A stretch of 64,000 nucleotides of DNA from a bacterium (GTDB lineage Bacteria; Spirochaetota; Spirochaetia; Sphaerochaetales; Sphaerochaetaceae), in NCBI GenBank assembly GCA_963649615.1, contig CAVJIN010000001.1, positions 12,307-76,306 of the forward strand. The letters run 5' to 3'. A program made the translations under genes and the position numbers. Every line of letters begins with the position of its first letter. Within the stretch, counting starts at the first letter, position 1. This document shows, piece after piece, positions 6,966 to 24,114 of this stretch. The notes under the pieces were generated by a model. The model made no database searches. It saw only the letters and a program-made list of their open reading frames with translations, and was not told the DNA's origin.

Positions 6966-8969
6966 ATGAGTTTTTCCACTACCTACAATTTGCCCATGAA
7001 CCTTGAAGAAATAGGAATTAAAGAACTCTCAGTAGAAGAAGCAAGCTTCTCCTATAATCAAAATACCATTGCCTCTTTTCGCAAAACATGTGGGAAAAAC
7101 GGCATTGTTGGACAACCTCGTGCTTTAAGTGCATTAAGCATGGGAATGAGCGTAAATACAAAAGGCTACAATATTTACATTAGCGGTGAAGATGGAACCG
7201 GAAGACATAGTGCAGTACATCAAATTGCAGAAACCCTTCCAGCTCCAAAAGAGCTTTACGACTTAATCTACGTTCACAATTTTGACAGAAATGAATCTCC
7301 ATTTCTTCTTTTGTTGCCAAGTCCCTATGGAACAGTCTTACAAAACTCACTAAGCGCTGTTGCATCTTTTGTAGATGCAGGACAGTGGGAAAGAGCTCTT
7401 ACAGAAGAAAAAGAGCTTGAAAAAACATTATCAGCTGTAGCTGAGCCCTTACTTCTAGTATTCCTAAGTCAACTTAGAACAGCCTTAGGAAAACACACAG
7501 AAGGCTATAAAAGATATCTTGGCAACCTTATTCACAATGGTTCAAAAACCAAAGTTCGTCCCCTTGTAGAAGAATACCACCCAACCCATGCAAACCTGTT
7601 TGGACAACTTACAAAAAGAGAAGAATACTGTCATTTAAGTCTCTCTGGTGGTTCCATTCTTGATGCAGTAGGAGGCTTTTTTGTAGTAAGAGCAGATAAA
7701 ATTCTTTCTCAGAACACCCTTTGGGAAGACATTAAACTTTTTGCTGAAAGCTCAAGCTTCACAATTCAAGGGCAACCAAATGACAATTTGCAAGACAAAA
7801 TCATCATAAGACCTGTTGTTTCTAAACTCCCAGTAAAGATCATTTTAATTGGCAGTGACACGCTCTATGACAAACTCTGTGACACAGACGAGGAGTTTCT
7901 TAGACTCTTTAAGGTCTCAGCAGAATTTGATTTTTCCATGCCAGCCAACGAAGAGAATATCAAGGGAACAATAGCCTATATCTTAAGTGTCATTGAAAAA
8001 AATTCACTATTACCAATCTCAGATGCAGCTATTTGTGAACTATTAAAATACAGTTCATGGTATGCAGAAATGAGAGGAGAACTCACAACAAGGCTCTCTT
8101 TTATAGGAGATCTTCTCTTTGAAGCAAACTATTTTGCAACTCAAAACAACGCCACAACCATAGATGAAAAATGCGTTAAACAAGCCATGAAGGCAAGAGA
8201 CTTTGCGAACGGATTGACAGAAGAAAAAATCAACAAGGAAATAGAAGAAGGTGAAATGATAATCTCCTTGGTTGGAACAAAAGTTGGAGTAGTAAATGGC
8301 CTTGCTGTCATGGACAGAGGTCTTGCTTCCTTTGGTACACCCACAGTGATATCGGTCTCTGTTGCACCCGGCTCGGAAGGAATTGTAAATATTGAACATG
8401 AGGCTGGCCTTTCCGGGGAGATACACGATAAAGGCCTTCTCATCCTGGAAGGATATCTCAGAAAACGCTATGCACGTTCTTTCCCGCTTTCAATCTATGC
8501 CGGAATTTGCTTTGAACAATCCTATGCAGAGGTAGATGGTGATAGTGCGTCGTCCTCTGAGCTCTTTGCTCTGCTCTCTGCCATTGGAGAGCTTCCTGTG
8601 CGCCAAGATATAGCAGTCACCGGCTCTGTAAACCAAATGGGAGACATCCAACCAGTTGGCGGAATAAATGAAAAGATAAGTGGATTTTTCTCAATTTGTG
8701 AAAAAATGGGCCTTACAGGCAGACAAGGAGTCATCATTCCAAAGCAGAATGTAAAATCCTTAATCTTGCCGGATAACATTATAGAGTCCATTCAAAAGGG
8801 AAATTTTCATATCTACCCAATCACAACTATAGATGAAGGAATGGAAATCTTAACGCTACGTCCAAGTGGAGAGCGCAACCCCAAAGGAACATTCCCACAA
8901 AACTCGGCAAACCGCATTATTGAAGACAGGCTCAAAAAGCTCTACGAACTTTCCAAGCCAGCAAATTAA
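6966..8969 (+). CDS. Lon-like protease (AAA-like N-domain plus S16 Lon proteolytic domain; YcbZ/LonC-like)
   Basis: The C-terminal GDSASSSELFALLSAI block carries the Ser nucleophile, and the PVGGINEKI block carries the Lys. The N-terminal P-loop-like sequence is GEDGTGRHS. Confidence 0.75.
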   Translation: MSFSTTYNLPMNLEEIGIKELSVEEASFSYNQNTIASFRKTCGKNGIVGQPRALSALSMGMSVNTKGYNIYISGEDGTGRHSAVHQIAETLPAPKELYDLIYVHNFDRNESPFLLLLPSPYGTVLQNSLSAVASFVDAGQWERALTEEKELEKTLSAVAEPLLLVFLSQLRTALGKHTEGYKRYLGNLIHNGSKTKVRPLVEEYHPTHANLFGQLTKREEYCHLSLSGGSILDAVGGFFVVRADKILSQNTLWEDIKLFAESSSFTIQGQPNDNLQDKIIIRPVVSKLPVKIILIGSDTLYDKLCDTDEEFLRLFKVSAEFDFSMPANEENIKGTIAYILSVIEKNSLLPISDAAICELLKYSSWYAEMRGELTTRLSFIGDLLFEANYFATQNNATTIDEKCVKQAMKARDFANGLTEEKINKEIEEGEMIISLVGTKVGVVNGLAVMDRGLASFGTPTVISVSVAPGSEGIVNIEHEAGLSGEIHDKGLLILEGYLRKRYARSFPLSIYAGICFEQSYAEVDGDSASSSELFALLSAIGELPVRQDIAVTGSVNQMGDIQPVGGINEKISGFFSICEKMGLTGRQGVIIPKQNVKSLILPDNIIESIQKGNFHIYPITTIDEGMEILTLRPSGERNPKGTFPQNSANRIIEDRLKKLYELSKPAN

Positions 8970-8998
8970 CCTAATTCTTGTGGTATATTTTTTGTGAT

Positions 8999-9349
8999 TT
9001 ACTTTCCAGAATAAAATCTAGAATCCCAATCACTTTCCTTCTTTTTTCTTTCTTCCTCTTCTGGTGCGTGAGTATTCGCAGAGGTGAAATCTTCTGTCTC
9101 CGGATTATAATAATATCTATGCTTGCTCTTTTTGGAGGCTTTCTCATCTTCCTCTTCATATGGATTTACAGGAAGAATGAAACCTAAGATTGCGTAGATA
9201 ACTAAACATGGAAAAACGGCTGTAAAAATAGCTACGAGAATAAATACGAGCCTTACGGCGTCTTCCGAAAAATCTTTCCATTGGGCAATGCCCTTGCAAA
9301 CTCCAAAGATTTCACCATTTTTTGATCTATAAAGTCTTTTTGTTGCCAT
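8999..9349 (-). CDS. pspC: PspC-domain membrane protein
   Basis: KRLYRSKNGEIFGVCKGIAQW followed by a single TM helix is typical of the PspC domain. It sits 15 nt downstream of pspA. Confidence 0.8.
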   Translation of the reverse strand: MATKRLYRSKNGEIFGVCKGIAQWKDFSEDAVRLVFILVAIFTAVFPCLVIYAILGFILPVNPYEEEDEKASKKSKHRYYYNPETEDFTSANTHAPEEEERKKKESDWDSRFYSGK

Positions 9350-9364
9350 TTTATTTTCCCTTTC

Positions 9365-10069
9365 TCAGCTTTTTTCCATTTTTTTCTTCAGTTCATCAAG
9401 TTCTTTCTGAATTGCATTCAATTCTTCCAAATCCTTGAATTTTTGCTCTAAATCTTCTTCTTTTTTTGCCTGTTGCTGTTCTTGCTCTTTACGAGCTTTC
9501 ATTCTATCAATGCGCTCTTCCATTCTAGCAAAACGCTCCATTGGGTCTTCTTTGTCCGTTTTCTCGGAATGTCCTTTCTCTGAGGAGCTAGAAAAATTAT
9601 AAGAGTATGAAGTCTCTGTGCTTTGCTCTTGTTTTTTCTGACTTTCTTCTCTCATCTTCTTGTACTTCTCTTTAGCACCAGCAAGCTTTTCTTCAAGCTG
9701 GGCAATGTCTGCCTTATATTTTTCAATAGCACTTTCATATTTTTGAACTTCTTCCCTTAATTGCAAAAGTTCTTCAGTAAGCTTCTTTTTCTCAAGTAAA
9801 GCCTCCTTTGCAAGAGAATCCTTTCCATTTGCAATAGCTAGTTCTGCTCTAGACTGCCAGCGATTAATCAAAGCCTCAAGTTCCTTAATTTTTCTATCGG
9901 TAGTAGTCTTTGAACCAATCACTGACGCGCAACTTGTTTTAATTTCAATGATGGTATCCTCCATCTCATTAATCATAAGCTTAATCATCTTCTCAGGATC
10001 TTCAGCCTGATCCAAAAGCGCATTTATATTTGAATTTACAATATCAAGAAATCTAGAAAAAACTCCCAT
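9365..10069 (-). CDS. pspA: PspA/IM30 family protein (phage shock protein A), paralog 1
   Basis: N-terminal MGVFSRFLDIVNSNINALLDQAEDPEKMIKLMINEMED, a long coiled coil, and a C-terminal ERFARMEERIDRM block. Confidence 0.85.
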   Translation of the reverse strand: MGVFSRFLDIVNSNINALLDQAEDPEKMIKLMINEMEDTIIEIKTSCASVIGSKTTTDRKIKELEALINRWQSRAELAIANGKDSLAKEALLEKKKLTEELLQLREEVQKYESAIEKYKADIAQLEEKLAGAKEKYKKMREESQKKQEQSTETSYSYNFSSSSEKGHSEKTDKEDPMERFARMEERIDRMKARKEQEQQQAKKEEDLEQKFKDLEELNAIQKELDELKKKMEKS

Positions 10070-10096
10070 GATAAATCTCCTTACACTTTCTATGTA

Positions 10097-10112
10097 GCAT
10101 TTTGCATGCCAA
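10097..10112 (-). promoter_or_regulatory. Sigma-54 (-24/-12) promoter for pspA-pspC
   Basis: The minus strand reads TTGGCATGCAAAATGC(T). GG and GC have the consensus TGGCACG-N4-TTGCW spacing. The GC element is 28 nt upstream of the pspA ATG, and GGAGA is the RBS. Confidence 0.7.
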
Positions 10113-10196
10113 CTTGATTTTTCCAGTTAAAAGGGCTTAAAACCCGATATTTTTATAGGTGTAGACTTCTTTATCTTGGCCATTTTAACCTTTTAT

Positions 10197-10209
10197 GGTA
10201 AATTTTACC
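10197..10209. promoter_or_regulatory. Palindrome GGTAAATTTTACC, candidate PspF upstream activating site / pspF autoregulatory operator
   Basis: Perfect 6-1-6 palindrome about 117 bp upstream of the predicted pspA start and 3 nt before the pspF ATG. A near-identical copy lies at 12070-12082. Confidence 0.5.
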
Positions 10210-10211
10210 AC

Positions 10212-11246
10212 ATGGACAGACAAACTGAAAACTACATAGGCGAATCAGAAGTTTTTCTAGACTTTCTACATAGAATTGCAGAGGCTGCAACAGTAGATAG
10301 AAGCGTTCTTGTAATAGGCGAAAGAGGAAGCGGAAAAGAACTTGCGGCAAGTAGATTACATTATCTGTCTAAGCGTTGGCAAAAACCCCTTGTTACGCTT
10401 AACTGCGCGGCTCTTGCCCCTTCTTTAATAGAAAGCGAACTCTTTGGATATGAGCAGGGAGCTTTTACAGGTGCAAACAAAACCAGAAAGGGAAGATTTG
10501 AAGAAGCTCAAGGAGGAACACTCTTTTTGGACGAAATTGGAAACATTCCAATGCAAGTTCAAGAAAAAATTTTAAGAGTTGTAGAATATGGAACCTATGA
10601 AAGAGTTGGATCCTCAGTAACTCATGAGGCAGATGTAAGAATAATTGGAGCAACTAATGCCAATCTAAAAGAACTATGCGAACAAGGAAAATTTAAAGAA
10701 GACCTGTTAGACAGATTAAGTTTTGAAGTAATTTTTGTTCCACCTTTAAGAGAAAGAGGAGAAGATATTCTTCTTTTAGCAAATTATTTTGCTACTCGTA
10801 TGTCTATGGAGTGCGGAATTGTAGGCAATCCCACTTTTTCTGAAGATGTTCAATTTAAGCTACTTTCATATTCTTGGCCGGGCAATGTTCGAGAGCTTAA
10901 AAATGTAGTTGAAAGAGCTGTTTACAGAAGTAAAGGAGAGACAATCTCTTCTATCCAAATAGACCCTTTTGTTAATCCGTTTGAAACAAAAGAAACAGAT
11001 AAAAAGCCAACGGATATTGATGTACAAAAACCTCAAACAACGGCCTATTTCTATGATAACATACCAATAAACAAGCTTAATGACACAAAAGAGAGCATTG
11101 AAAAGAATCTTCTCGAAAGAGCTTTACAAAAAACAAACGGCAACCAAAAAGAGGCTGCCGTTCTTATGGAGCTTTCATATGACCAATTTAGAGGTCTTTA
11201 TAGAAAGCACAAAGCTCATTTTGCAAAAACCTCAGAAGTTAATTAG
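10212..11246 (+). CDS. pspF: Sigma-54-dependent transcriptional activator with no N-terminal sensory domain (PspF-type)
   Basis: The AAA+ core begins about 10 residues from the ATG. It has Walker A GERGSGKE, the GAFTGA loop, the LFLDEI Walker B, and a C-terminal Fis-type HTH (NQKEAAVLMELSYDQFRGLYRKH). The track's TTG at 10176 was rejected. Confidence 0.8.
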   Translation: MDRQTENYIGESEVFLDFLHRIAEAATVDRSVLVIGERGSGKELAASRLHYLSKRWQKPLVTLNCAALAPSLIESELFGYEQGAFTGANKTRKGRFEEAQGGTLFLDEIGNIPMQVQEKILRVVEYGTYERVGSSVTHEADVRIIGATNANLKELCEQGKFKEDLLDRLSFEVIFVPPLRERGEDILLLANYFATRMSMECGIVGNPTFSEDVQFKLLSYSWPGNVRELKNVVERAVYRSKGETISSIQIDPFVNPFETKETDKKPTDIDVQKPQTTAYFYDNIPINKLNDTKESIEKNLLERALQKTNGNQKEAAVLMELSYDQFRGLYRKHKAHFAKTSEVN

Positions 11247-11892
11247 CAAACTTAGCTTTGAGCTCATTAAACTCAGCTTCCACACTTGCATTCTGTTCCA
11301 TACTTACAAAAGAAGTCTCAACTTTGTTTGCTTGAGAAAAAACAGAAGCCTCTGCTTCAAGTCGCTCAACTTTCTCCTCCATTTCGTTAAAACGTTTAAC
11401 TGCTTCTGAACAATCAAAAGAATTAATCTGCTTTTCCATCTCAATCTTCTCTTTAGCATGTTCTGCTCTAGCAACTAAGGTTCTTTCTTTGGCCTTTACT
11501 TCCTGAAGTTTTTCTGAAAGTTTTGCAATTTGAACTTCCTGGCTTGCGGAAATTTCTTTTAAAGTTTTCAACTCCTCTTCAACTTCTTCAACTCTAACCG
11601 CTGCCTTTTGTTTTTCAGAAATTGCTTCTTTTGCAAGCTCATCTTTGCCGTTTTTTACAGCCATTTGCGCTCTCATTTCCCATCGGGTAGTTGCAGCTTT
11701 ATACTCTTCCAAAACCTTTTCTCTTCCCTTAATAGTACAAAGAGTCTCTGACGCACTTTCCTTTGCCTTTTCTAAGGTCTCTTCCATCTGAGTAATACTG
11801 TACCTAATCATTTTAGAAGGATTTTCCATCTTGTCTAAAGCATGATTTACATTTGAACTAAAAATGTCGTGAATTCTCTTAAATGCGTTCAT
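11239..11892 (-). CDS. PspA/IM30 family protein, paralog 2
   Basis: N-terminal MNAFKRIHDIFSSNVNHALDKMENPSKMIRYSITQMEE, a coiled coil, and a C-terminal RFNEMEEKVERLEAEA block. Its 3' end overlaps the pspF 3' end by 8 nt (convergent). Confidence 0.8.
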   Translation of the reverse strand: MNAFKRIHDIFSSNVNHALDKMENPSKMIRYSITQMEETLEKAKESASETLCTIKGREKVLEEYKAATTRWEMRAQMAVKNGKDELAKEAISEKQKAAVRVEEVEEELKTLKEISASQEVQIAKLSEKLQEVKAKERTLVARAEHAKEKIEMEKQINSFDCSEAVKRFNEMEEKVERLEAEASVFSQANKVETSFVSMEQNASVEAEFNELKAKFAN

Positions 11893-11911
11893 CTTTTAAT
11901 CTCCTCGTAGG

Positions 11912-11929
11912 GAGGTTTTCAAAAACCTC
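11912..11929. repeat. GAGGTTTT-CA-AAAACCTC hairpin (intergenic hairpin family, copy a)
   Basis: Perfect 8-bp arms located 19 nt upstream of the pspA-2 ATG, just before the GGAGA RBS. Confidence 0.6.
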
Positions 11930-11976
11930 TAAAATTATTCTCTTTAAACCACAACACTTGTGGACACAAAGTCTAT

Positions 11977-11992
11977 TGCAAAACCCGTGCCA
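11977..11992 (-). promoter_or_regulatory. Sigma-54 (-24/-12) promoter for pspA paralog 2
   Basis: The minus strand reads TGGCACGGGTTTTGCA, a full match to TGGCACG-N4-TTGCA. It lies about 85 nt upstream of the ATG. Confidence 0.8.
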
Positions 11993-12069
11993 AGTTCCCG
12001 TAAGTCTATAATTGAACACAAAATAAACAAGAAGACACATAAACCACAACAAATGCAAGAACCAAAAAT

Positions 12070-12082
12070 GGTAAAATTTACC
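12070..12082. promoter_or_regulatory. Palindrome GGTAAAATTTACC, second candidate PspF upstream activating site
   Basis: Shares the flanks (ATGGTAAA-W-TTTACCAC) with the copy at 10197-10209. It lies about 109 bp upstream of the predicted pspA-2 start. Confidence 0.5.
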
Positions 12083-12134
12083 ACGAGAAAAAGTCGACCA
12101 AAAGTTGGCAAGCACAGAAAACGTTTAAAAAATC

Positions 12135-12163
12135 TTGCGTTTGTATTGCAAATGTATTACAAT
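12135..12163 (+). promoter_or_regulatory. Candidate sigma-70 promoter for the antitoxin gene
   Basis: TTGCGT, a 17-nt spacer, then TACAAT. It overlaps a near-palindrome TTGTATT...ATTACAA that could be an operator. Confidence 0.4.
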
Positions 12164-12183
12164 TTAAACAACAGGAGGGTTTT

Positions 12184-12471
12184 ATGGCTAAGGATGCTGT
12201 TCTTCAAATTAGGATTGATTCGGAACTTAAAGAAAAAGTTGAGGCTCTATATGATAATATGGGATTTTCTTTTGCTGATGCCGTTAGAATGTTTGCCGTT
12301 CAAAGCTTAGCAAACAATGGATTACCCTTTACTCCAAAATCAACAATACTTCTAAACAATTATCCAAATTCTGCTGGTGGAATCTTACACAAATATGCAA
12401 ACGCTTCTTTGTATGAAAAAGAAAAAGATGCTTGGGCAAGTGCGGTGGGAGAAAAGTATGGTCTTAATTGA
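12184..12471 (+). CDS. RelB/DinJ-family type II antitoxin
   Basis: LQIRIDSELKEKVEALYDNMGFSFADAVRMFAVQSLANNGLPF matches the DinJ ribbon-helix-helix pattern. AGGAGG is the RBS. Confidence 0.8.
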   Translation: MAKDAVLQIRIDSELKEKVEALYDNMGFSFADAVRMFAVQSLANNGLPFTPKSTILLNNYPNSAGGILHKYANASLYEKEKDAWASAVGEKYGLN

Positions 12472-12627
12472 TGCAAACATTATTCTACGCTATTTACTAA
12501 GAGACATAGAAGAGAAATATGCTATTGCAAGCCAAATCATAGAAAAAGGATGCTGTACAACAACGTGCTAGGGCAATCCGTTGTAAGTTTTGATAAAAAA
12601 CTAAATTCTCACTTGTTAGTTTTGTAG
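12458..12627 (+). pseudogene. Internally deleted PIN-domain (VapC-like) toxin remnant
   Basis: The ATG overlaps the antitoxin stop. MVLIDANIILRYLLRDIEEKYAIASQIIEKG is a PIN N-terminus, and the frame stops after 38 codons at 12571. In the +2 frame, 12568-12627 reads GQSVVSFDKKLNSHLLVL*, which looks like a PIN C-terminus. Roughly 75-80 central codons are missing. Confidence 0.6.
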
Positions 12628-12635
12628 AAAAAAGA

Positions 12636-13382
12636 TCAACAAGAAAACCAGTGTTGCATAAAAATGCCTGCAGCAACAGAAACGTTTAAAGACCCTTTGC
12701 TTCCACCAAGAGAAATAGAAACTCTTTTACCTGCACAAGCTAAAACAGCAGGACTTATACCAAATTCTTCAGAGCCAAGAATCCCAACACCCCGTTTAGG
12801 AAAAGAAAAAGAATCAATATCTTCCCCTCCAACTTCTAATGCAAGAACCTCATCAGCCCCATAAGAACTTAGAAAAGCAACTACCTCTTCTTCCTTCATA
12901 AAAGTCCAATTAACAGTAGAAACCGTACCCATTGAAGTCCGCTGGGCTCTGACATGCTCGGGAGACGCCGTTCCTTCAACAAGAATGATCTTGCTTATAC
13001 CAAAGGAATCTGCACTTCTGAAAATAGCACCAACATTATAAGGACTTCTAATTCTGTCTAAAACTAGAACTTTATCCTGTAAAACCCGTACACTTGAATC
13101 CAAAGCACCAGTAGAAGTTTCTCTGAAATCCCAGTCAGAAGGCTCTGCGCCAAGCCTTTTCAAGATATCTTGGCTAATATCGTCTAGTTTAACAACAACT
13201 GCTTCAGAAGGCAATTTGTCATCTATTTTGTCATAAGATGTTAAAGATAGGACATCATTTATGTATCCTAAGTCAACATCTTTACCGGCTCGAACATCAA
13301 AAGCTGCCTGATGCATAATAATAGAAATTTTTCTAAGCCTTGTCCTCTCTTTAAGACTCTCAAGCTTCTTCTTCGTTATCAT
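12636..13382 (-). CDS. TrmH/SpoU-family RNA 2'-O-methyltransferase
   Basis: The block SPYNVGAIFRSADSFGISKIILVEG and the C-terminal SLNVSVAAGI knot motif support the family call. Confidence 0.75.
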   Translation of the reverse strand: MITKKKLESLKERTRLRKISIIMHQAAFDVRAGKDVDLGYINDVLSLTSYDKIDDKLPSEAVVVKLDDISQDILKRLGAEPSDWDFRETSTGALDSSVRVLQDKVLVLDRIRSPYNVGAIFRSADSFGISKIILVEGTASPEHVRAQRTSMGTVSTVNWTFMKEEEVVAFLSSYGADEVLALEVGGEDIDSFSFPKRGVGILGSEEFGISPAVLACAGKRVSISLGGSKGSLNVSVAAGIFMQHWFSC

Positions 13383-22383: not shown

Positions 22384-24114
22384 ATGCGAATGAGTAAACT
22401 TTTTTCTAAAACCCTAAGAGAAGCGCCAAATGGAGCAGATTGCAAAGGTTATGAGTATCTATTAAGGGCTGGTTATATTGACCAACTTGCAACTGGAATT
22501 TTTTCACTGCTACCTCTTGGATTTAGATCAATTCAAAAGATATCGGCTATAGTGAGAGAAGAAATGAACGCCTTGGGTGCGCAAGAAATTCTCATGCCAG
22601 TTGTAAACCCAGGTGACCTGTGGAAGGAAACTGGAAGATTCTACAGCATAGACCGCGAAATGAGTCGTTTCAAGGACCGCAATGACCGAGATATGTGCTT
22701 GGCCATGACCCACGAAGAATGTGCCACAGACCTTGGACGTAATATTATCGATTCCTACAAGCGTCTCCCTCTTTTGGTATATCAACTTCAAACCAAGTGG
22801 CGTGATGACCCAAGACCTCGTGCAGGCCTTATAAGAGTCAGAGAGTTCACAATGAAGGATAGCTACAGCTTTGATAGAGACCAAGCTGGACTTGAAAAGG
22901 TTTACAAAGCACATTACGATGCCTATTTCAGAATTTACAAGCGTTGCGGACTGCCTGTAATTGCAGTAGGAAGTGACAGCGGAATGATGGGAGGAAAAGT
23001 TTCTCATGAATACATGTATCTCTCTCCAATTGGTGAAGATACCATCATTACCTGCCCACATTGTGGCTACACAGCAAATCGCCAAGTTGCAACATTTAAA
23101 AAGCAATACTTTGCTGAAGAGCCAAAGGCAAAAGAACTTGTGGCAACACCTAACGCAAAGACAATTGAAGACCTCTGTGATTTCCTCAATATTCCAGCCA
23201 CCAAGACAGCTAAAGCCCTCTTTATGGTTGGTTCTTTCATTGACGATACAAACGGCGAAGAACAGGACAAACTCATAGTTGGCATTGTCCGGGGAGATAT
23301 GGAAATTGAAGAAAACAAACTTCAAAATGCAGCAAAAGCTAACTCTCTCAGACCTGCACACGAAGAAGAAATTCTCGCAGCTGGCATTGTCCCCGGCTTT
23401 GGCTCCCCAATTGGTGCAAAAGAGGGTACAGTCATCATCATTGACGACTCTGTAGCCAAATCAAACAACCTCGTAGCCGGTGCAAACAAAGAAGGTTATC
23501 ACTATCTCAACACAAATTACGGCATTGACTATCAAGGCCAGGTTGCAGATATAGCCAGCGCCGCCTCCGGATATGCTTGCCCAGAATGCGGACAACCACT
23601 AAACTCCTCCAAAGGCGTTGAAGTTGGCAACATCTTCCAACTTGGCACACGCTACTCCCAAGCCATGAATTGCTACTACCAGGACGAGAACGGTGTTCGC
23701 AAACCTGTCATCATGGGCAGCTACGGCATTGGCATAGGTCGCCTACTCGCCTGCTTATGCGAAGAATACAACGACGCCAATGGTCTGAAACTCCCCATTG
23801 CAGTTGCACCATACCAAGTCCACTTCATTAGCCTAATCAAAGATTCCGATATCTCTGATAAGATTGCCAATGAATTAGAAGCAGCCGGCATTGAAGTCCT
23901 CTATGACGACAGAAAAGAGACTGCCGGTGTCAAATTTGCAGATGCAGACCTCATTGGCATTCCAATCAGAATTACCCTTGGAAACAGAAGTTATAAAGAG
24001 GGCAAATGTGAAGTAAAGCTGAGAAGTAATGAAGACGAAGTAATGAGCTTTGACCTAGACAACCTTGTTCCAGAGGTCAAAGCCCTTATTGCTAAAATAT
24101 CTACCCTCTCTTGA
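22384..24114 (+). CDS. proS: Proline--tRNA ligase (bacterial type with INS editing domain)
   Basis: Length and class II motifs fit (FRDEMSRF-like, REFTMKDSYSF, GSYGIGIGR). The GGAGA RBS lies 14 nt after the upstream stop. Confidence 0.9.
   Translation: MRMSKLFSKTLREAPNGADCKGYEYLLRAGYIDQLATGIFSLLPLGFRSIQKISAIVREEMNALGAQEILMPVVNPGDLWKETGRFYSIDREMSRFKDRNDRDMCLAMTHEECATDLGRNIIDSYKRLPLLVYQLQTKWRDDPRPRAGLIRVREFTMKDSYSFDRDQAGLEKVYKAHYDAYFRIYKRCGLPVIAVGSDSGMMGGKVSHEYMYLSPIGEDTIITCPHCGYTANRQVATFKKQYFAEEPKAKELVATPNAKTIEDLCDFLNIPATKTAKALFMVGSFIDDTNGEEQDKLIVGIVRGDMEIEENKLQNAAKANSLRPAHEEEILAAGIVPGFGSPIGAKEGTVIIIDDSVAKSNNLVAGANKEGYHYLNTNYGIDYQGQVADIASAASGYACPECGQPLNSSKGVEVGNIFQLGTRYSQAMNCYYQDENGVRKPVIMGSYGIGIGRLLACLCEEYNDANGLKLPIAVAPYQVHFISLIKDSDISDKIANELEAAGIEVLYDDRKETAGVKFADADLIGIPIRITLGNRSYKEGKCEVKLRSNEDEVMSFDLDNLVPEVKALIAKISTLS

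What the first reader, a model, noticed from the sequence alone, without database searches (positions are those of the whole stretch)
10197..12082. The same 13-bp palindrome sits about 110 bp upstream of both sigma-54 promoters (candidate PspF UAS)
What the sequence shows:
- ATGGTAAATTTTACCAC lies at 10195-10211 and ATGGTAAAATTTACCAC at 12068-12084.
- The two share 16 of 17 positions, and each contains a perfect GGTAAA-W-TTTACC palindrome.
- The centres lie about 117 bp and about 109 bp upstream of the two predicted transcription starts.

Established knowledge: this is the usual distance for enhancer-binding-protein sites.

Inference: the first copy also ends 3 nt before the activator's own ATG, so it could autoregulate pspF. 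Finding the same 17-mer twice in 2 kb, in the same geometry, is unlikely to be chance.
Basis: partly seen in the sequence, partly recalled or inferred. Interest (0 to 1): 0.65.

Follow-up and report, generated by a model that had tools for sequence, protein, structure and literature searches.

The report
PspF enhancer sites at psp promoters
The repeated palindrome is almost certainly the DNA site where the membrane-stress activator PspF binds to switch on two sigma-54-dependent pspA genes and probably to damp its own gene; this arrangement is already known from E. coli and predicted in sulfate reducers, so it is a sound but ordinary find.

Summary
TGGTAAAWTTTACCA, a 15-bp 7-1-7 palindrome rather than 13 bp, occurs exactly twice in 64 kb (0 of 100 shuffles gave any). 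Its centres lie 118 and 110 bp upstream of the predicted starts of two sigma-54 promoters that drive pspA1-pspC and pspA2. Between them lies a PspF-family activator gene (TIGR02974 above its cut-off).

All 17 orthologous spirochaete loci keep the motif at both promoters. TGGT-N7-ACCA is also the top dyad upstream of pspF in other phyla. It matches the PspF motif predicted for Desulfovibrionales (Kazakov 2015) and resembles candidate E. coli pspA/pspG sites.

This reproduces the E. coli two-UAS geometry I infer from sequence (-119/-99).

The paired sites abut the pspF ATG at a fixed 1-nt gap and contain -35/-10-like hexamers. That suggests autorepression of a possibly leaderless pspF mRNA, which is inference only.

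This is a new member of a known kind and of low interest.

The parts
10196..10210 (.). Strong PspF site (distal UAS of pspA1-pspC), TGGTAAATTTTACCA. Its centre, 10203, is at -118. It ends 1 nt before the pspF ATG.
   Evidence: Exact palindrome. Top PWM hit in the window at 22.8 bits. Identical or near-identical at the same position in 17 relatives.
10177..10191 (.). Weak partner PspF site (proximal UAS), TGGCCATTTTAACCT. Its centre, 10184, is at -99, 19 bp from the strong site.
   Evidence: PWM score of only 9.2 bits. It lies inside a 40-nt block conserved in L001-L004 while the flanking intergenic DNA diverges. Better matches occupy the same position in L007-L012 and L023.
10096..10111 (-). 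Sigma-54 (-24/-12) promoter of pspA1-pspC, TGGCATGCAAAATGCT. The predicted +1 is near 10085, giving a 16-nt leader with an AAGGAG Shine-Dalgarno sequence.
   Evidence: Conserved in relatives.
9365..10069 (-). pspA1 (PspA/IM30, 234 aa)
   Evidence: Pfam PF04012, E = 3.4e-38.
8999..9349 (-). pspC-like gene (116 aa), downstream of pspA1 in the same operon
   Evidence: Pfam PspC PF04024, E = 2.6e-13.
10212..11246 (+). pspF: a sigma-54 enhancer-binding protein with no regulatory domain, GAFTGA, a W56-equivalent tryptophan, and HTH_8 at aa 294-332
   Evidence: TIGR02974 at 453.6 bits, above the 443.55 cut-off. Pfam Sigma54_activat plus HTH_8. 49% identical to E. coli PspF over its full length.
10176..10204 (+). 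Putative sigma-70 promoter of pspF embedded in the two PspF sites: TTGGCC, 17-nt spacer, TAAATT. The -10 hexamer ends 7 nt before the ATG. There is no Shine-Dalgarno sequence, so the mRNA may be leaderless.
   Evidence: Only 8 of 12 matches in the window, below the threshold of the scanning tool. The same geometry scores 9-10 of 12 in L001, L006-L008 and L023 (TTGGCA-17-TATTAT or TAAATT), with a constant 7-nt distance to the ATG. This is inference only.
11239..11892 (-). pspA2 (PspA/IM30 paralogue, 217 aa, 31% identical to PspA1)
   Evidence: Pfam PF04012, E = 2.9e-36. Paralogue comparison.
11977..11992 (-). Sigma-54 promoter of pspA2, TGGCACGGGTTTTGCA (perfect consensus). The predicted +1 is near 11966.
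   Evidence: Invariant core in 12 aligned relatives.
12069..12083 (.). Single strong PspF site (UAS of pspA2), TGGTAAAATTTACCA. Its centre, 12076, is at -110.
   Evidence: PWM score 21.1 bits. Conserved in 15 relatives, at -109 to -111 in 9 of them, and displaced by about 1 or 2 helical turns in L010, L023 and L001.
12002..12024 (-). Conserved A/T-rich island at about -36 to -58 of the pspA2 promoter. It could be a site for a DNA-bending protein or an intrinsic bend.
   Evidence: Invariant A/T columns between the UAS and the promoter in alignment A1. No convincing IHF consensus seen by eye. Its function is not tested.

Best explanation
**What the palindromes are.** They are the enhancer (UAS) sites of the PspF-type sigma-54 activator encoded between them.

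**How the system most likely works (inferred from the E. coli paradigm).**
- A PspF dimer places its two C-terminal Fis-type HTH domains on the half-sites TGGTA and TACCA, which lie one helical turn apart.
- UAS-bound PspF assembles into the active hexamer.
- DNA looping brings the hexamer to the sigma-54 RNA polymerase closed complex at the -24/-12 promoters of pspA1-pspC and pspA2.
- ATP hydrolysis, through the GAFTGA loop, opens the promoter.
- PspA is expected to inhibit activity by binding the conserved W56 loop of PspF, and membrane stress relieves this.

**Site arrangement.**
- The pspA1/pspF intergenic enhancer is a pair: a strong site at -118 and a weak site at -99.
- pspA2 has a single strong site at -110.

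**Autorepression.** The pair abuts the pspF start codon and overlaps -35/-10-like hexamers. Occupancy by PspF should therefore also repress pspF.

**Shown versus inferred.**
- Shown: the sequences, their statistics, the gene identities, and conservation of the sites in position and sequence.
- Inferred: binding, looping, activation and autorepression.
For: 1. Two exact 15-bp palindromes were found, and 0 of 100 shuffles gave any.
2. The adjacent gene passes the PspF equivalog cut-off and has an HTH_8 domain. Its putative recognition helix is LSYDQFRGLYRKH. This compares with LTYDQFRGLYRRH in Desulfovibrio DVU2989 and LTYHQFRALLKKH in E. coli.
3. Both sites lie about 110-118 bp upstream of sigma-54 promoters that drive PspA genes.
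4. Phylogenetic footprint:
   - All 17 spirochaete relatives keep a site pair next to pspF. Of the 15 in which pspA2 and its promoter were found, all keep a site upstream of it. Surrounding intergenic DNA is unalignable.
   - GG and CC at positions +/-5 and +/-6 are invariant in the 38 distinct sites (50 chosen in all).
5. In an unbiased dyad count, TGGT-N7-ACCA ranks first upstream of pspF in spirochaetes (15 of 17 loci) and in other phyla (15 of 63 loci, against 2 of 63 in 16 times more background). Site density is about 60- to 150-fold higher there than elsewhere.
6. The same motif, with 20-bp tandem spacing, was predicted for PspF in Desulfovibrionales (PMC4641369 supplement).
7. E. coli comparison:
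   - E. coli pspA has two related dyads at -119 and -99, the distal one overlapping the pspF ATG. pspG has one dyad.
   - This agrees with the published count of two UASs at pspA and one at pspG, and with autorepression of pspF (PMC3709507).
8. The pspA2 UAS-to-promoter distance changes by about whole helical turns among closer relatives: 99, 110, 120 and 131 bp.
9. PspA1 and PspA2 are only 31% identical, and their upstream regions share nothing except the palindrome. The 16-of-17 identity therefore reflects selection, not a recent duplication.
10. A metagenome scan for UAS-N60-90-sigma-54 promoter gave 17 hits. A recognisable pspA lies directly downstream in 5, and a short PspA-like N-terminal remnant in 2 more.
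Against: - No binding or expression data exist for this organism.
- rpoN is not in the 64-kb window, so the presence of sigma-54 is inferred.
- The proximal site in the window is weak (9.2 bits, seventh-best PWM hit).
- The pspA1 promoter deviates from the consensus at two positions.
- The distances from the two window sites to their -24 elements differ by 8 bp, which is not a whole helical turn.
- Across relatives the pspA1 UAS lies anywhere from -95 to -241.
- The E. coli sites I matched lack the otherwise invariant GG or CC in one half-site. Their published footprint coordinates could not be read here because the papers are not held.
- The PWM training sites were chosen by similarity to the window motif, so searches are partly circular. 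One search is not.
Confidence: 0.88

Rival explanations
1. The palindrome is the operator of a different dimeric transcription factor, for example a repressor of the psp genes encoded elsewhere in the genome, and PspF binds some other sequence.
For: No binding data exist. A/T-rich dyads of this size are typical of many HTH regulators. The site overlaps -10-like hexamers, which would suit a repressor.
Against: - The motif tracks pspF across several phyla.
- It is the only other conserved element besides the sigma-54 promoter in the pspA1-pspF intergenic region.
- It sits at enhancer distance.
- The pspA2 alignment does show other small conserved islands, but no alternative dyad.
Confidence: 0.06
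2. The conserved block upstream of pspF is only the sigma-70 promoter and translation-start region of pspF, and its dyad symmetry is incidental. It is not an enhancer.
For: -35/-10-like hexamers with 17-18 nt spacing lie at a constant 7 nt from the ATG in most relatives. The distance to the ATG is fixed, whereas the distance to the pspA1 promoter varies from 95 to 241 bp.
Against: - It cannot explain the identical palindrome upstream of pspA2, where no gene start is conserved. The RelB-like gene is absent from all 17 relatives, and the site then lies just past the end of a convergently oriented TrmH-like gene.
- It cannot explain the invariant symmetric GG...CC.
- It cannot explain the motif lying 70-120 bp upstream of pspF in Desulfobacterales.
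- The promoter match in the window is only 8 of 12.
Confidence: 0.03
3. The palindrome is a chance recurrence, a dispersed repeat, or an RNA hairpin or terminator with no regulatory role in DNA.
For: The genome is A/T-rich (37.6% GC), which favours A/T-rich palindromes. The RNA could form a 6-bp stem.
Against: - 0 of 100 shuffles gave even one exact copy.
- There are only two copies in 64 kb, both at psp promoters.
- The motif is conserved across phyla.
- The hairpin is only -4 kcal/mol, with an unremarkable z-score for one copy.
- No Rfam family matched.
Confidence: 0.01

Closest known systems
E. coli PspF upstream activating sequences (two at pspA, one at pspG) in the shared pspF-pspA control region
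   Same: - The activator lacks a regulatory domain and is 49% identical.
- pspF and pspA are divergent and share an intergenic enhancer.
- Two dyads lie about 20 bp apart, at about -119/-99 in E. coli and -118/-99 here.
- The distal dyad touches the pspF start codon.
- A second psp promoter carries a single site: pspG in E. coli, pspA2 here.
- The 5-5-5 dyad layout has an AAATT-type centre, and 9-12 of 15 positions are shared.
- PspF represses its own sigma-70 promoter through the enhancer (PMC3709507).
   Different: - The E. coli half-sites are degenerate (TGATG/TAGTG ... CGCCA/CGCTA) rather than TGGTA...TACCA.
- The second regulated promoter here drives a PspA paralogue, not pspG.
- There is no pspB or pspD here.
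- No clear IHF consensus was seen between UAS and promoter.
- pspF here has no Shine-Dalgarno sequence and may be leaderless.
- My assignment of the E. coli sites is by sequence. The footprint papers (Dworkin 1997, Jovanovic 1997 and 1999, Lloyd 2004) were not readable here.
Predicted PspF (DVU2989) regulon motif in Desulfovibrionales (Kazakov et al. 2015, PMC4641369; RegPrecise-style comparative genomics)
   Same: - The motif is essentially the same, TGG-N9-CCA with an A/T-rich centre. Examples are TTTGGTGGATTTTACCAGT upstream of DVU2988 pspA and tandem sites 20 bp apart in D. desulfuricans G20.
- The HTH recognition helix is nearly identical.
   Different: - The phylum differs: Spirochaetota here (Sphaerochaetaceae, judged from relatives' record titles).
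- The sites here are perfect palindromes.
- There are two separately regulated pspA paralogues.
- The enhancer abuts the pspF ATG.
Generic bacterial enhancer-binding-protein UAS (NtrC at glnAp2, NifA TGT-N10-ACA, and others)
   Same: Dyad-symmetric sites about 80-150 bp upstream of a -24/-12 promoter, bound by a C-terminal HTH and acting through DNA looping.
   Different: The site sequence is specific to the PspF subfamily. The activator is controlled in trans by PspA rather than by an N-terminal sensory domain.

Membership tests
PspF-dependent psp enhancer (UAS) / Psp regulon control region | The cognate activator is a PspF-family bEBP: an AAA+ sigma-54 interaction domain with GAFTGA, no N-terminal regulatory domain, and a C-terminal HTH. 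| tested here: met
   TIGR02974 at 453.6 bits, above the 443.55 cut-off. Pfam Sigma54_activat at aa 9-170 and HTH_8 at aa 294-332. GAFTGA is present. The protein starts 8 aa before the AAA+ domain. It does not reach the cut-off of the enterobacterial model NF008622 (389 vs 529 bits).
PspF-dependent psp enhancer (UAS) / Psp regulon control region | A sigma-54 (-24 GG / -12 GC) promoter lies downstream of the site at enhancer distance. | tested here: met
   TGGCACGGGTTTTGCA (0 mismatches) and TGGCATGCAAAATGCT (2 mismatches). Site centres are at -110 and at -118/-99. The transcription starts are predicted, not mapped.
PspF-dependent psp enhancer (UAS) / Psp regulon control region | The regulated genes are psp genes (pspA and others). 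| tested here: met
   PspA_IM30 twice and PspC once. They fall below the NCBIfam equivalog cut-offs for enterobacterial PspA and PspC, so they are family members rather than strict equivalogs.
PspF-dependent psp enhancer (UAS) / Psp regulon control region | The site is dyad-symmetric and conserved in orthologous loci at the same relative position. | tested here: met
   17 of 17 spirochaete loci. It is the top dyad in an unbiased count in two taxon sets, with 60- to 150-fold enrichment.
PspF-dependent psp enhancer (UAS) / Psp regulon control region | The sequence is related to experimentally footprinted E. coli PspF UASs. | tested here: inconclusive
   - Candidate E. coli dyads share 9-12 of 15 positions and the same geometry.
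- The spirochaete PWM ranks the pspG dyad first in 4 kb, and the pspA dyads second and sixth in 3 kb.
- The published footprint coordinates could not be checked because the papers are not held.
PspF-dependent psp enhancer (UAS) / Psp regulon control region | PspF physically binds the site, and promoter activity depends on the site. | not testable with these tools
   Needs EMSA or footprinting and reporter assays.
PspF-dependent psp enhancer (UAS) / Psp regulon control region | The genome encodes sigma-54 (rpoN). | not testable with these tools
   No RpoN box was found in the six-frame translation of the 64-kb window. The rest of the genome is not available.
PspF-dependent psp enhancer (UAS) / Psp regulon control region | An IHF (or other bending-protein) site lies between the UAS and the promoter, as in E. 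coli pspA. | tested here: inconclusive
   A conserved A/T-rich island lies at about -36 to -58 of pspA2, but no convincing WATCAANNNNTTR match was seen by eye. This feature is not essential for membership.
Negative autoregulation of pspF through the shared enhancer | PspF sites overlap the pspF promoter or 5' end. | tested here: inconclusive
   The sites overlap -35/-10-like hexamers and end 1 nt before the ATG, with a geometry conserved in most relatives. The promoter match is weak in the window (8 of 12), and the transcription start is unmapped.

The most novel reading that the evidence does not exclude
In Sphaerochaetaceae the pair of PspF sites is itself the pspF promoter.
- The T-TGGC of the weak site supplies the -35 hexamer (TTGGCC/TTGGCA).
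- The A/T centre of the strong site supplies the -10 hexamer (TAAATT/TATTAT/TAGAAT).
- Transcription would start on the A of the ATG, giving a leaderless pspF mRNA with no Shine-Dalgarno sequence.

One 40-bp element would then act both as the enhancer for the divergent sigma-54 pspA promoter and as a self-occluding sigma-70 promoter. This would explain why its distance to the ATG is fixed at 1 nt while its distance to the pspA promoter drifts from 95 to 241 bp.
Probability: 0.35. Interest if true: 0.4.

Novelty: new member of a known kind. Interest (0 to 1): 0.25.

Why it matters
- **Annotation.** It gives a confident regulatory annotation for a psp membrane-stress locus in an uncultured gut or rumen spirochaete. 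The locus has one activator, three binding sites and two sigma-54 promoters, and two PspA paralogues are under the same control.
- **Conservation.** It shows that the PspF operator, TGG(T/C)-N7-(A/G)CCA, and even the two-site geometry at about -119/-99 next to the pspF start, is conserved from Enterobacteria through Desulfobacterota to Spirochaetota. That makes the motif usable for finding Psp regulons in metagenomes.
- **Limit.** It does not change what is known about how enhancer-binding proteins work.

Tried and rejected
- **RNA explanations.** The palindrome folds at only -4 kcal/mol, and Rfam gave no hit in 8900-12700 at E <= 1. Rejected.
- **Recent duplication of a promoter cassette.** The two upstream regions align only at the palindrome, and PspA1 and PspA2 are 31% identical. 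Rejected.
- **The 12069 copy serving the divergent RelB-like gene.** That gene is absent from all 17 relatives, while the site stays with pspA2. Rejected.
- **Further regulon members in the window.** The next-best PWM hits, at 22477 and 49933 (14.4 and 14.1 bits), lie inside 576-aa and 841-aa ORFs with no sigma-54 promoter nearby. Treated as chance.
- **Published E. coli UAS coordinates.**
  - PMC179386, PMC177889 and PMC451634 are not held.
  - The reviews and later papers that were read give only the number of UASs, not their sequences.
- **IHF consensus between UAS and promoter.** No convincing match by eye.
- **Metagenome scan for UAS plus sigma-54 promoter.**
  - Of 17 hits, 10 have no recognisable psp gene.
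  - Pfam on four downstream ORFs gave only HDOD and Acyl_transf_3 or nothing.
  - These ORFs were not interpretable as regulon members.
Full report
**1. Observation**

They differ only at the central base.

- The symmetry is one base longer on each side than reported, giving a 15-bp 7-1-7 palindrome, TGGTAAA-W-TTTACCA.
- This 15-mer occurs exactly twice in the 64-kb window, and none of 100 dinucleotide-preserving shuffles produced a copy.
- The relaxed 13-mer with up to 2 mismatches is not enriched (4 found, 2.4 expected). The signal therefore rests on the two perfect copies.

**2. Gene context**

| Coordinates | Strand | Gene | Evidence |
|---|---|---|---|
| 6966-8969 | + | LonB-like protease | |
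| 8999-9349 | - | pspC-like | Pfam PspC |
| 9365-10069 | - | pspA1 | Pfam PspA_IM30 |
| 10212-11246 | + | pspF | TIGR02974 453.6 bits, cut-off 443.55 |
| 11239-11892 | - | pspA2 | PspA_IM30; 31% identical to PspA1 |
| 12184-12471 | + | RelB-like | |

- The pspF product has the Sigma54_activat, AAA lid and HTH_8 domains, GAFTGA, and no N-terminal regulatory domain.
- It is 49% identical to E. coli PspF over its full length, including the RW56Q loop that PspA contacts in E. coli.

Both pspA genes are preceded on the minus strand by -24/-12 promoters.

| Gene | Promoter | Coordinates |
|---|---|---|
| pspA1 | TGGCATGCAAAATGCT | 10111..10096 |
| pspA2 | TGGCACGGGTTTTGCA | 11992..11977 |

Taking +1 as 12 nt after the -12 C, the palindrome centres lie at -118 and -110.

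**3. Conservation**

A scan of one genome per species with the PspF protein returned 80 loci. Seventeen of them (61-91% identity) are Sphaerochaetaceae or Spirochaetales. They share the synteny Lon, pspC-pspA1, pspF, pspA2, trmH-like.

*Next to pspF*
- All 17 loci carry a pair of motif copies 19-22 bp apart, mostly 19-20 bp, directly upstream of pspF.
- The window's partner site is TGGCCATTTTAACCT at 10177-10191, with its centre at -99. It is weak (9.2 bits).
- It lies within a 40-nt block, CTTGGnnATTTTAACCTTTTwTGGTAAATTTTACCAyATG, that is nearly invariant in the four closest relatives.
- The roughly 60 nt between that block and the sigma-54 promoter cannot be aligned.

*Upstream of pspA2*
- A single copy lies upstream of the pspA2 sigma-54 promoter in every locus that reaches that far.
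- Its centre is at -109 to -111 in the window and 9 of 15 relatives.
- In L010, L023 and L001 it is shifted by -11, +10 and +21 bp, about whole helical turns.
- The more distant L013-L015 are out of phase by 2-3 bp.

**4. Unbiased test**

I enumerated all 4-mer dyads with gaps of 1-11 nt in the 250 nt upstream of pspF.
- TGGT-N7-ACCA ranks first in the spirochaete set (15 of 17 loci).
- It also ranks first in the 63 loci from Desulfobacterales, Entotheonella, Nitrospirales, Lentisphaerae and others. There it is found in 15 of 63 loci, against 2 of 63 in about 16 times more background sequence.

| Locus set | Sites/kb upstream of pspF | Sites/kb elsewhere |
|---|---|---|
| Spirochaetes | 3.62 | 0.059 |
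| Other phyla | 0.93 | 0.006 |

A PWM built from the relatives' sites gave the following.
- GG and CC at +/-5 and +/-6 are invariant in the 38 distinct sites.
- The two window palindromes score 22.8 and 21.1 bits. The next hits, at 14.4 and 14.1 bits, lie inside long ORFs.
- The PWM is partly circular, because its sites were picked by similarity to the window motif. The dyad count is not.

**5. Comparison with what is known**

*Desulfovibrionales*
- Kazakov et al. 2015 (PMC4641369, supplementary file 4) list predicted sites for the Desulfovibrio PspF orthologue DVU2989.
- Examples are TTTGGTGGATTTTACCAGT upstream of DVU2988 pspA, and three sites 20 bp apart in D. desulfuricans G20. This is the same TGG-N9-CCA motif.

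*Recognition helix*

| Source | Sequence |
|---|---|
| Window | LSYDQFRGLYRKH |
| Desulfovibrio DVU2989 | LTYDQFRGLYRRH |
| E. coli | LTYHQFRALLKKH |

*E. coli MG1655*

| Promoter | Dyad | Centre | Note |
|---|---|---|---|
| pspA | TGATGAAATTCGCCA | -119 | overlaps the pspF ATG by one base |
| pspA | TAGTGTAATTCGCTA | -99 | |
| pspG | TAGTCAAATTCACCA | -86 | top hit of the spirochaete PWM in 4 kb |

- PMC3709507 states that pspA has two UASs and pspG one.
- It also states that PspF bound to the pspA enhancer negatively controls sigma-70 transcription of pspF.
- I could not read the original footprint papers. Equating my dyads with UAS I and UAS II is therefore an inference from sequence, number and position.

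**6. Mechanism (inferred)**

- PspF dimers bind the half-sites TGGTA and TACCA through the HTH_8 domain.
- Bound PspF forms the hexamer, loops to the sigma-54 closed complex, and opens the pspA1-pspC and pspA2 promoters by ATP hydrolysis.
- PspA inhibits PspF until membrane stress titrates it away.

The paired sites next to pspF probably also repress pspF.
- In the window and 13 relatives, a -10-like hexamer (TAAATT, TATTAT or TAGAAT) inside the strong site ends 7 nt before the ATG (6 nt in L015).
- A -35-like hexamer (TTGGCC, TTGGCA) inside the weak site lies 17-18 nt upstream of it.
- There is no Shine-Dalgarno sequence, although both pspA genes have one.
- L014, where the site is separated from the ATG, does have a GGAG.

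This suggests a leaderless pspF mRNA made from a promoter that PspF occludes. There are caveats.
- The promoter match is only 8 of 12 in the window.
- The hexamers may simply be by-products of the operator sequence.
- L023 appears to start with GTG, which is poor for leaderless translation.

**7. Rival explanations**

- **RNA hairpin or terminator.** The hairpin is only -4 kcal/mol, and there is no Rfam hit.
- **Recent duplication.** The upstream regions share only the palindrome.
- **Promoter of the RelB-like gene.** That gene is absent from all relatives.
- **Chance.**
- **A different transcription factor.** This cannot be excluded without binding data. It is unlikely, because the motif co-occurs with pspF across phyla.

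**8. Wider scan**

A scan of metagenome contigs for TGGTAAAWTTTACCA-N60-90-TGGCAY-N5-WTGC gave 17 hits.
- In 5 hits a recognisable pspA follows directly, and 4 of those contigs also carry a pspF homologue. In 2 more the downstream ORF is a short PspA-like remnant.
- Four are near-identical marine low-GC contigs with several sigma-54-like promoters and no psp gene.
- The remainder are uninterpretable.

**9. Verdict**

- This is the PspF enhancer of a spirochaete psp locus, a new member of a well-known kind.
- The additions are a missed second site, E. coli-like geometry, and a testable leaderless-promoter idea.
- Interest is low to modest.

Noticed in passing
window 12184-12571: A RelB-like antitoxin gene (Pfam RelB) is followed by an overlapping short ORF starting near 12459 (MVLIDANIILRYLLRD...). 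By eye it looks like the N-terminus of a PIN/VapC toxin, and it stops after about 36 codons. The whole cassette is absent from all 17 related loci, where the pspA2 enhancer lies next to the TrmH-like gene. It is therefore a lineage-specific insertion with a probably decayed toxin.
   Followed up: partly
window 11135-11246: pspF (+, stop at 11246) and pspA2 (-, stop at 11239) converge and overlap by 8 bp. The only terminator-like hairpin for pspA2 (minus strand, 11163..11135) lies inside the 3' coding part of pspF. Induced pspA2 transcription would therefore run antisense into the end of pspF.
   Followed up: no
window 11962-11967 and 12002-12024 (alignment A1): Besides the UAS and the -24/-12 elements, the pspA2 control region has two more conserved islands in 12 relatives: GTGTCC at the predicted +1 to +5, and A/T positions at about -36 to -58. 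The second could be a site for a bending protein.
   Followed up: partly
L086, L088, L095, L099 (marine metagenome contigs, 27-36% GC): Near-identical regions carry the exact TGGTAAATTTTACCA plus an adjacent TGGTAAAAAAA half-site, followed by three sigma-54-like promoters (for example TTGGCACGATTCTTGCA). No PspA, PspF or PspC homologue was detectable on these short contigs. They may be a PspF-type enhancer serving other genes.
   Followed up: partly
L001, L002, L005 (record titles): Contigs labelled Phocaeicola massiliensis, Selenomonadaceae and Bacteroidaceae carry the spirochaete-type Lon-pspC-pspA-pspF-pspA-trmH synteny, at 78-91% PspF protein identity to the window. They are probably mis-binned contigs in those MAGs.
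   Followed up: partly
non-spirochaete loci L017-L080, 250 nt upstream of pspF: A second palindrome family, GCATGA-N-TCATGC (dyads GCAT-N5-ATGC, CATG-N3-CATG, ATGA-N1-TCAT), occurs in 9-12 of 63 loci. It is found in 3-5 of 63 loci in the much larger background.
   Followed up: no
L084 1374-1955: The exact 15-mer plus a sigma-54-like promoter lies upstream of a 138-aa protein with a predicted signal-peptide-like N-terminus and no Pfam match, on a contig of 54% GC. It may be an envelope-stress gene under a PspF-like activator, or a chance match.
   Followed up: partly
window 10133-10145: A small G+C-rich hairpin (GGGCTTAAAACCC) lies between the pspA1 promoter and the enhancer and was flagged as terminator-like on the minus strand. 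It is retained only in a weakened form in the closest relative L002 (one stem mismatch), so it is probably not functional.
   Followed up: partly
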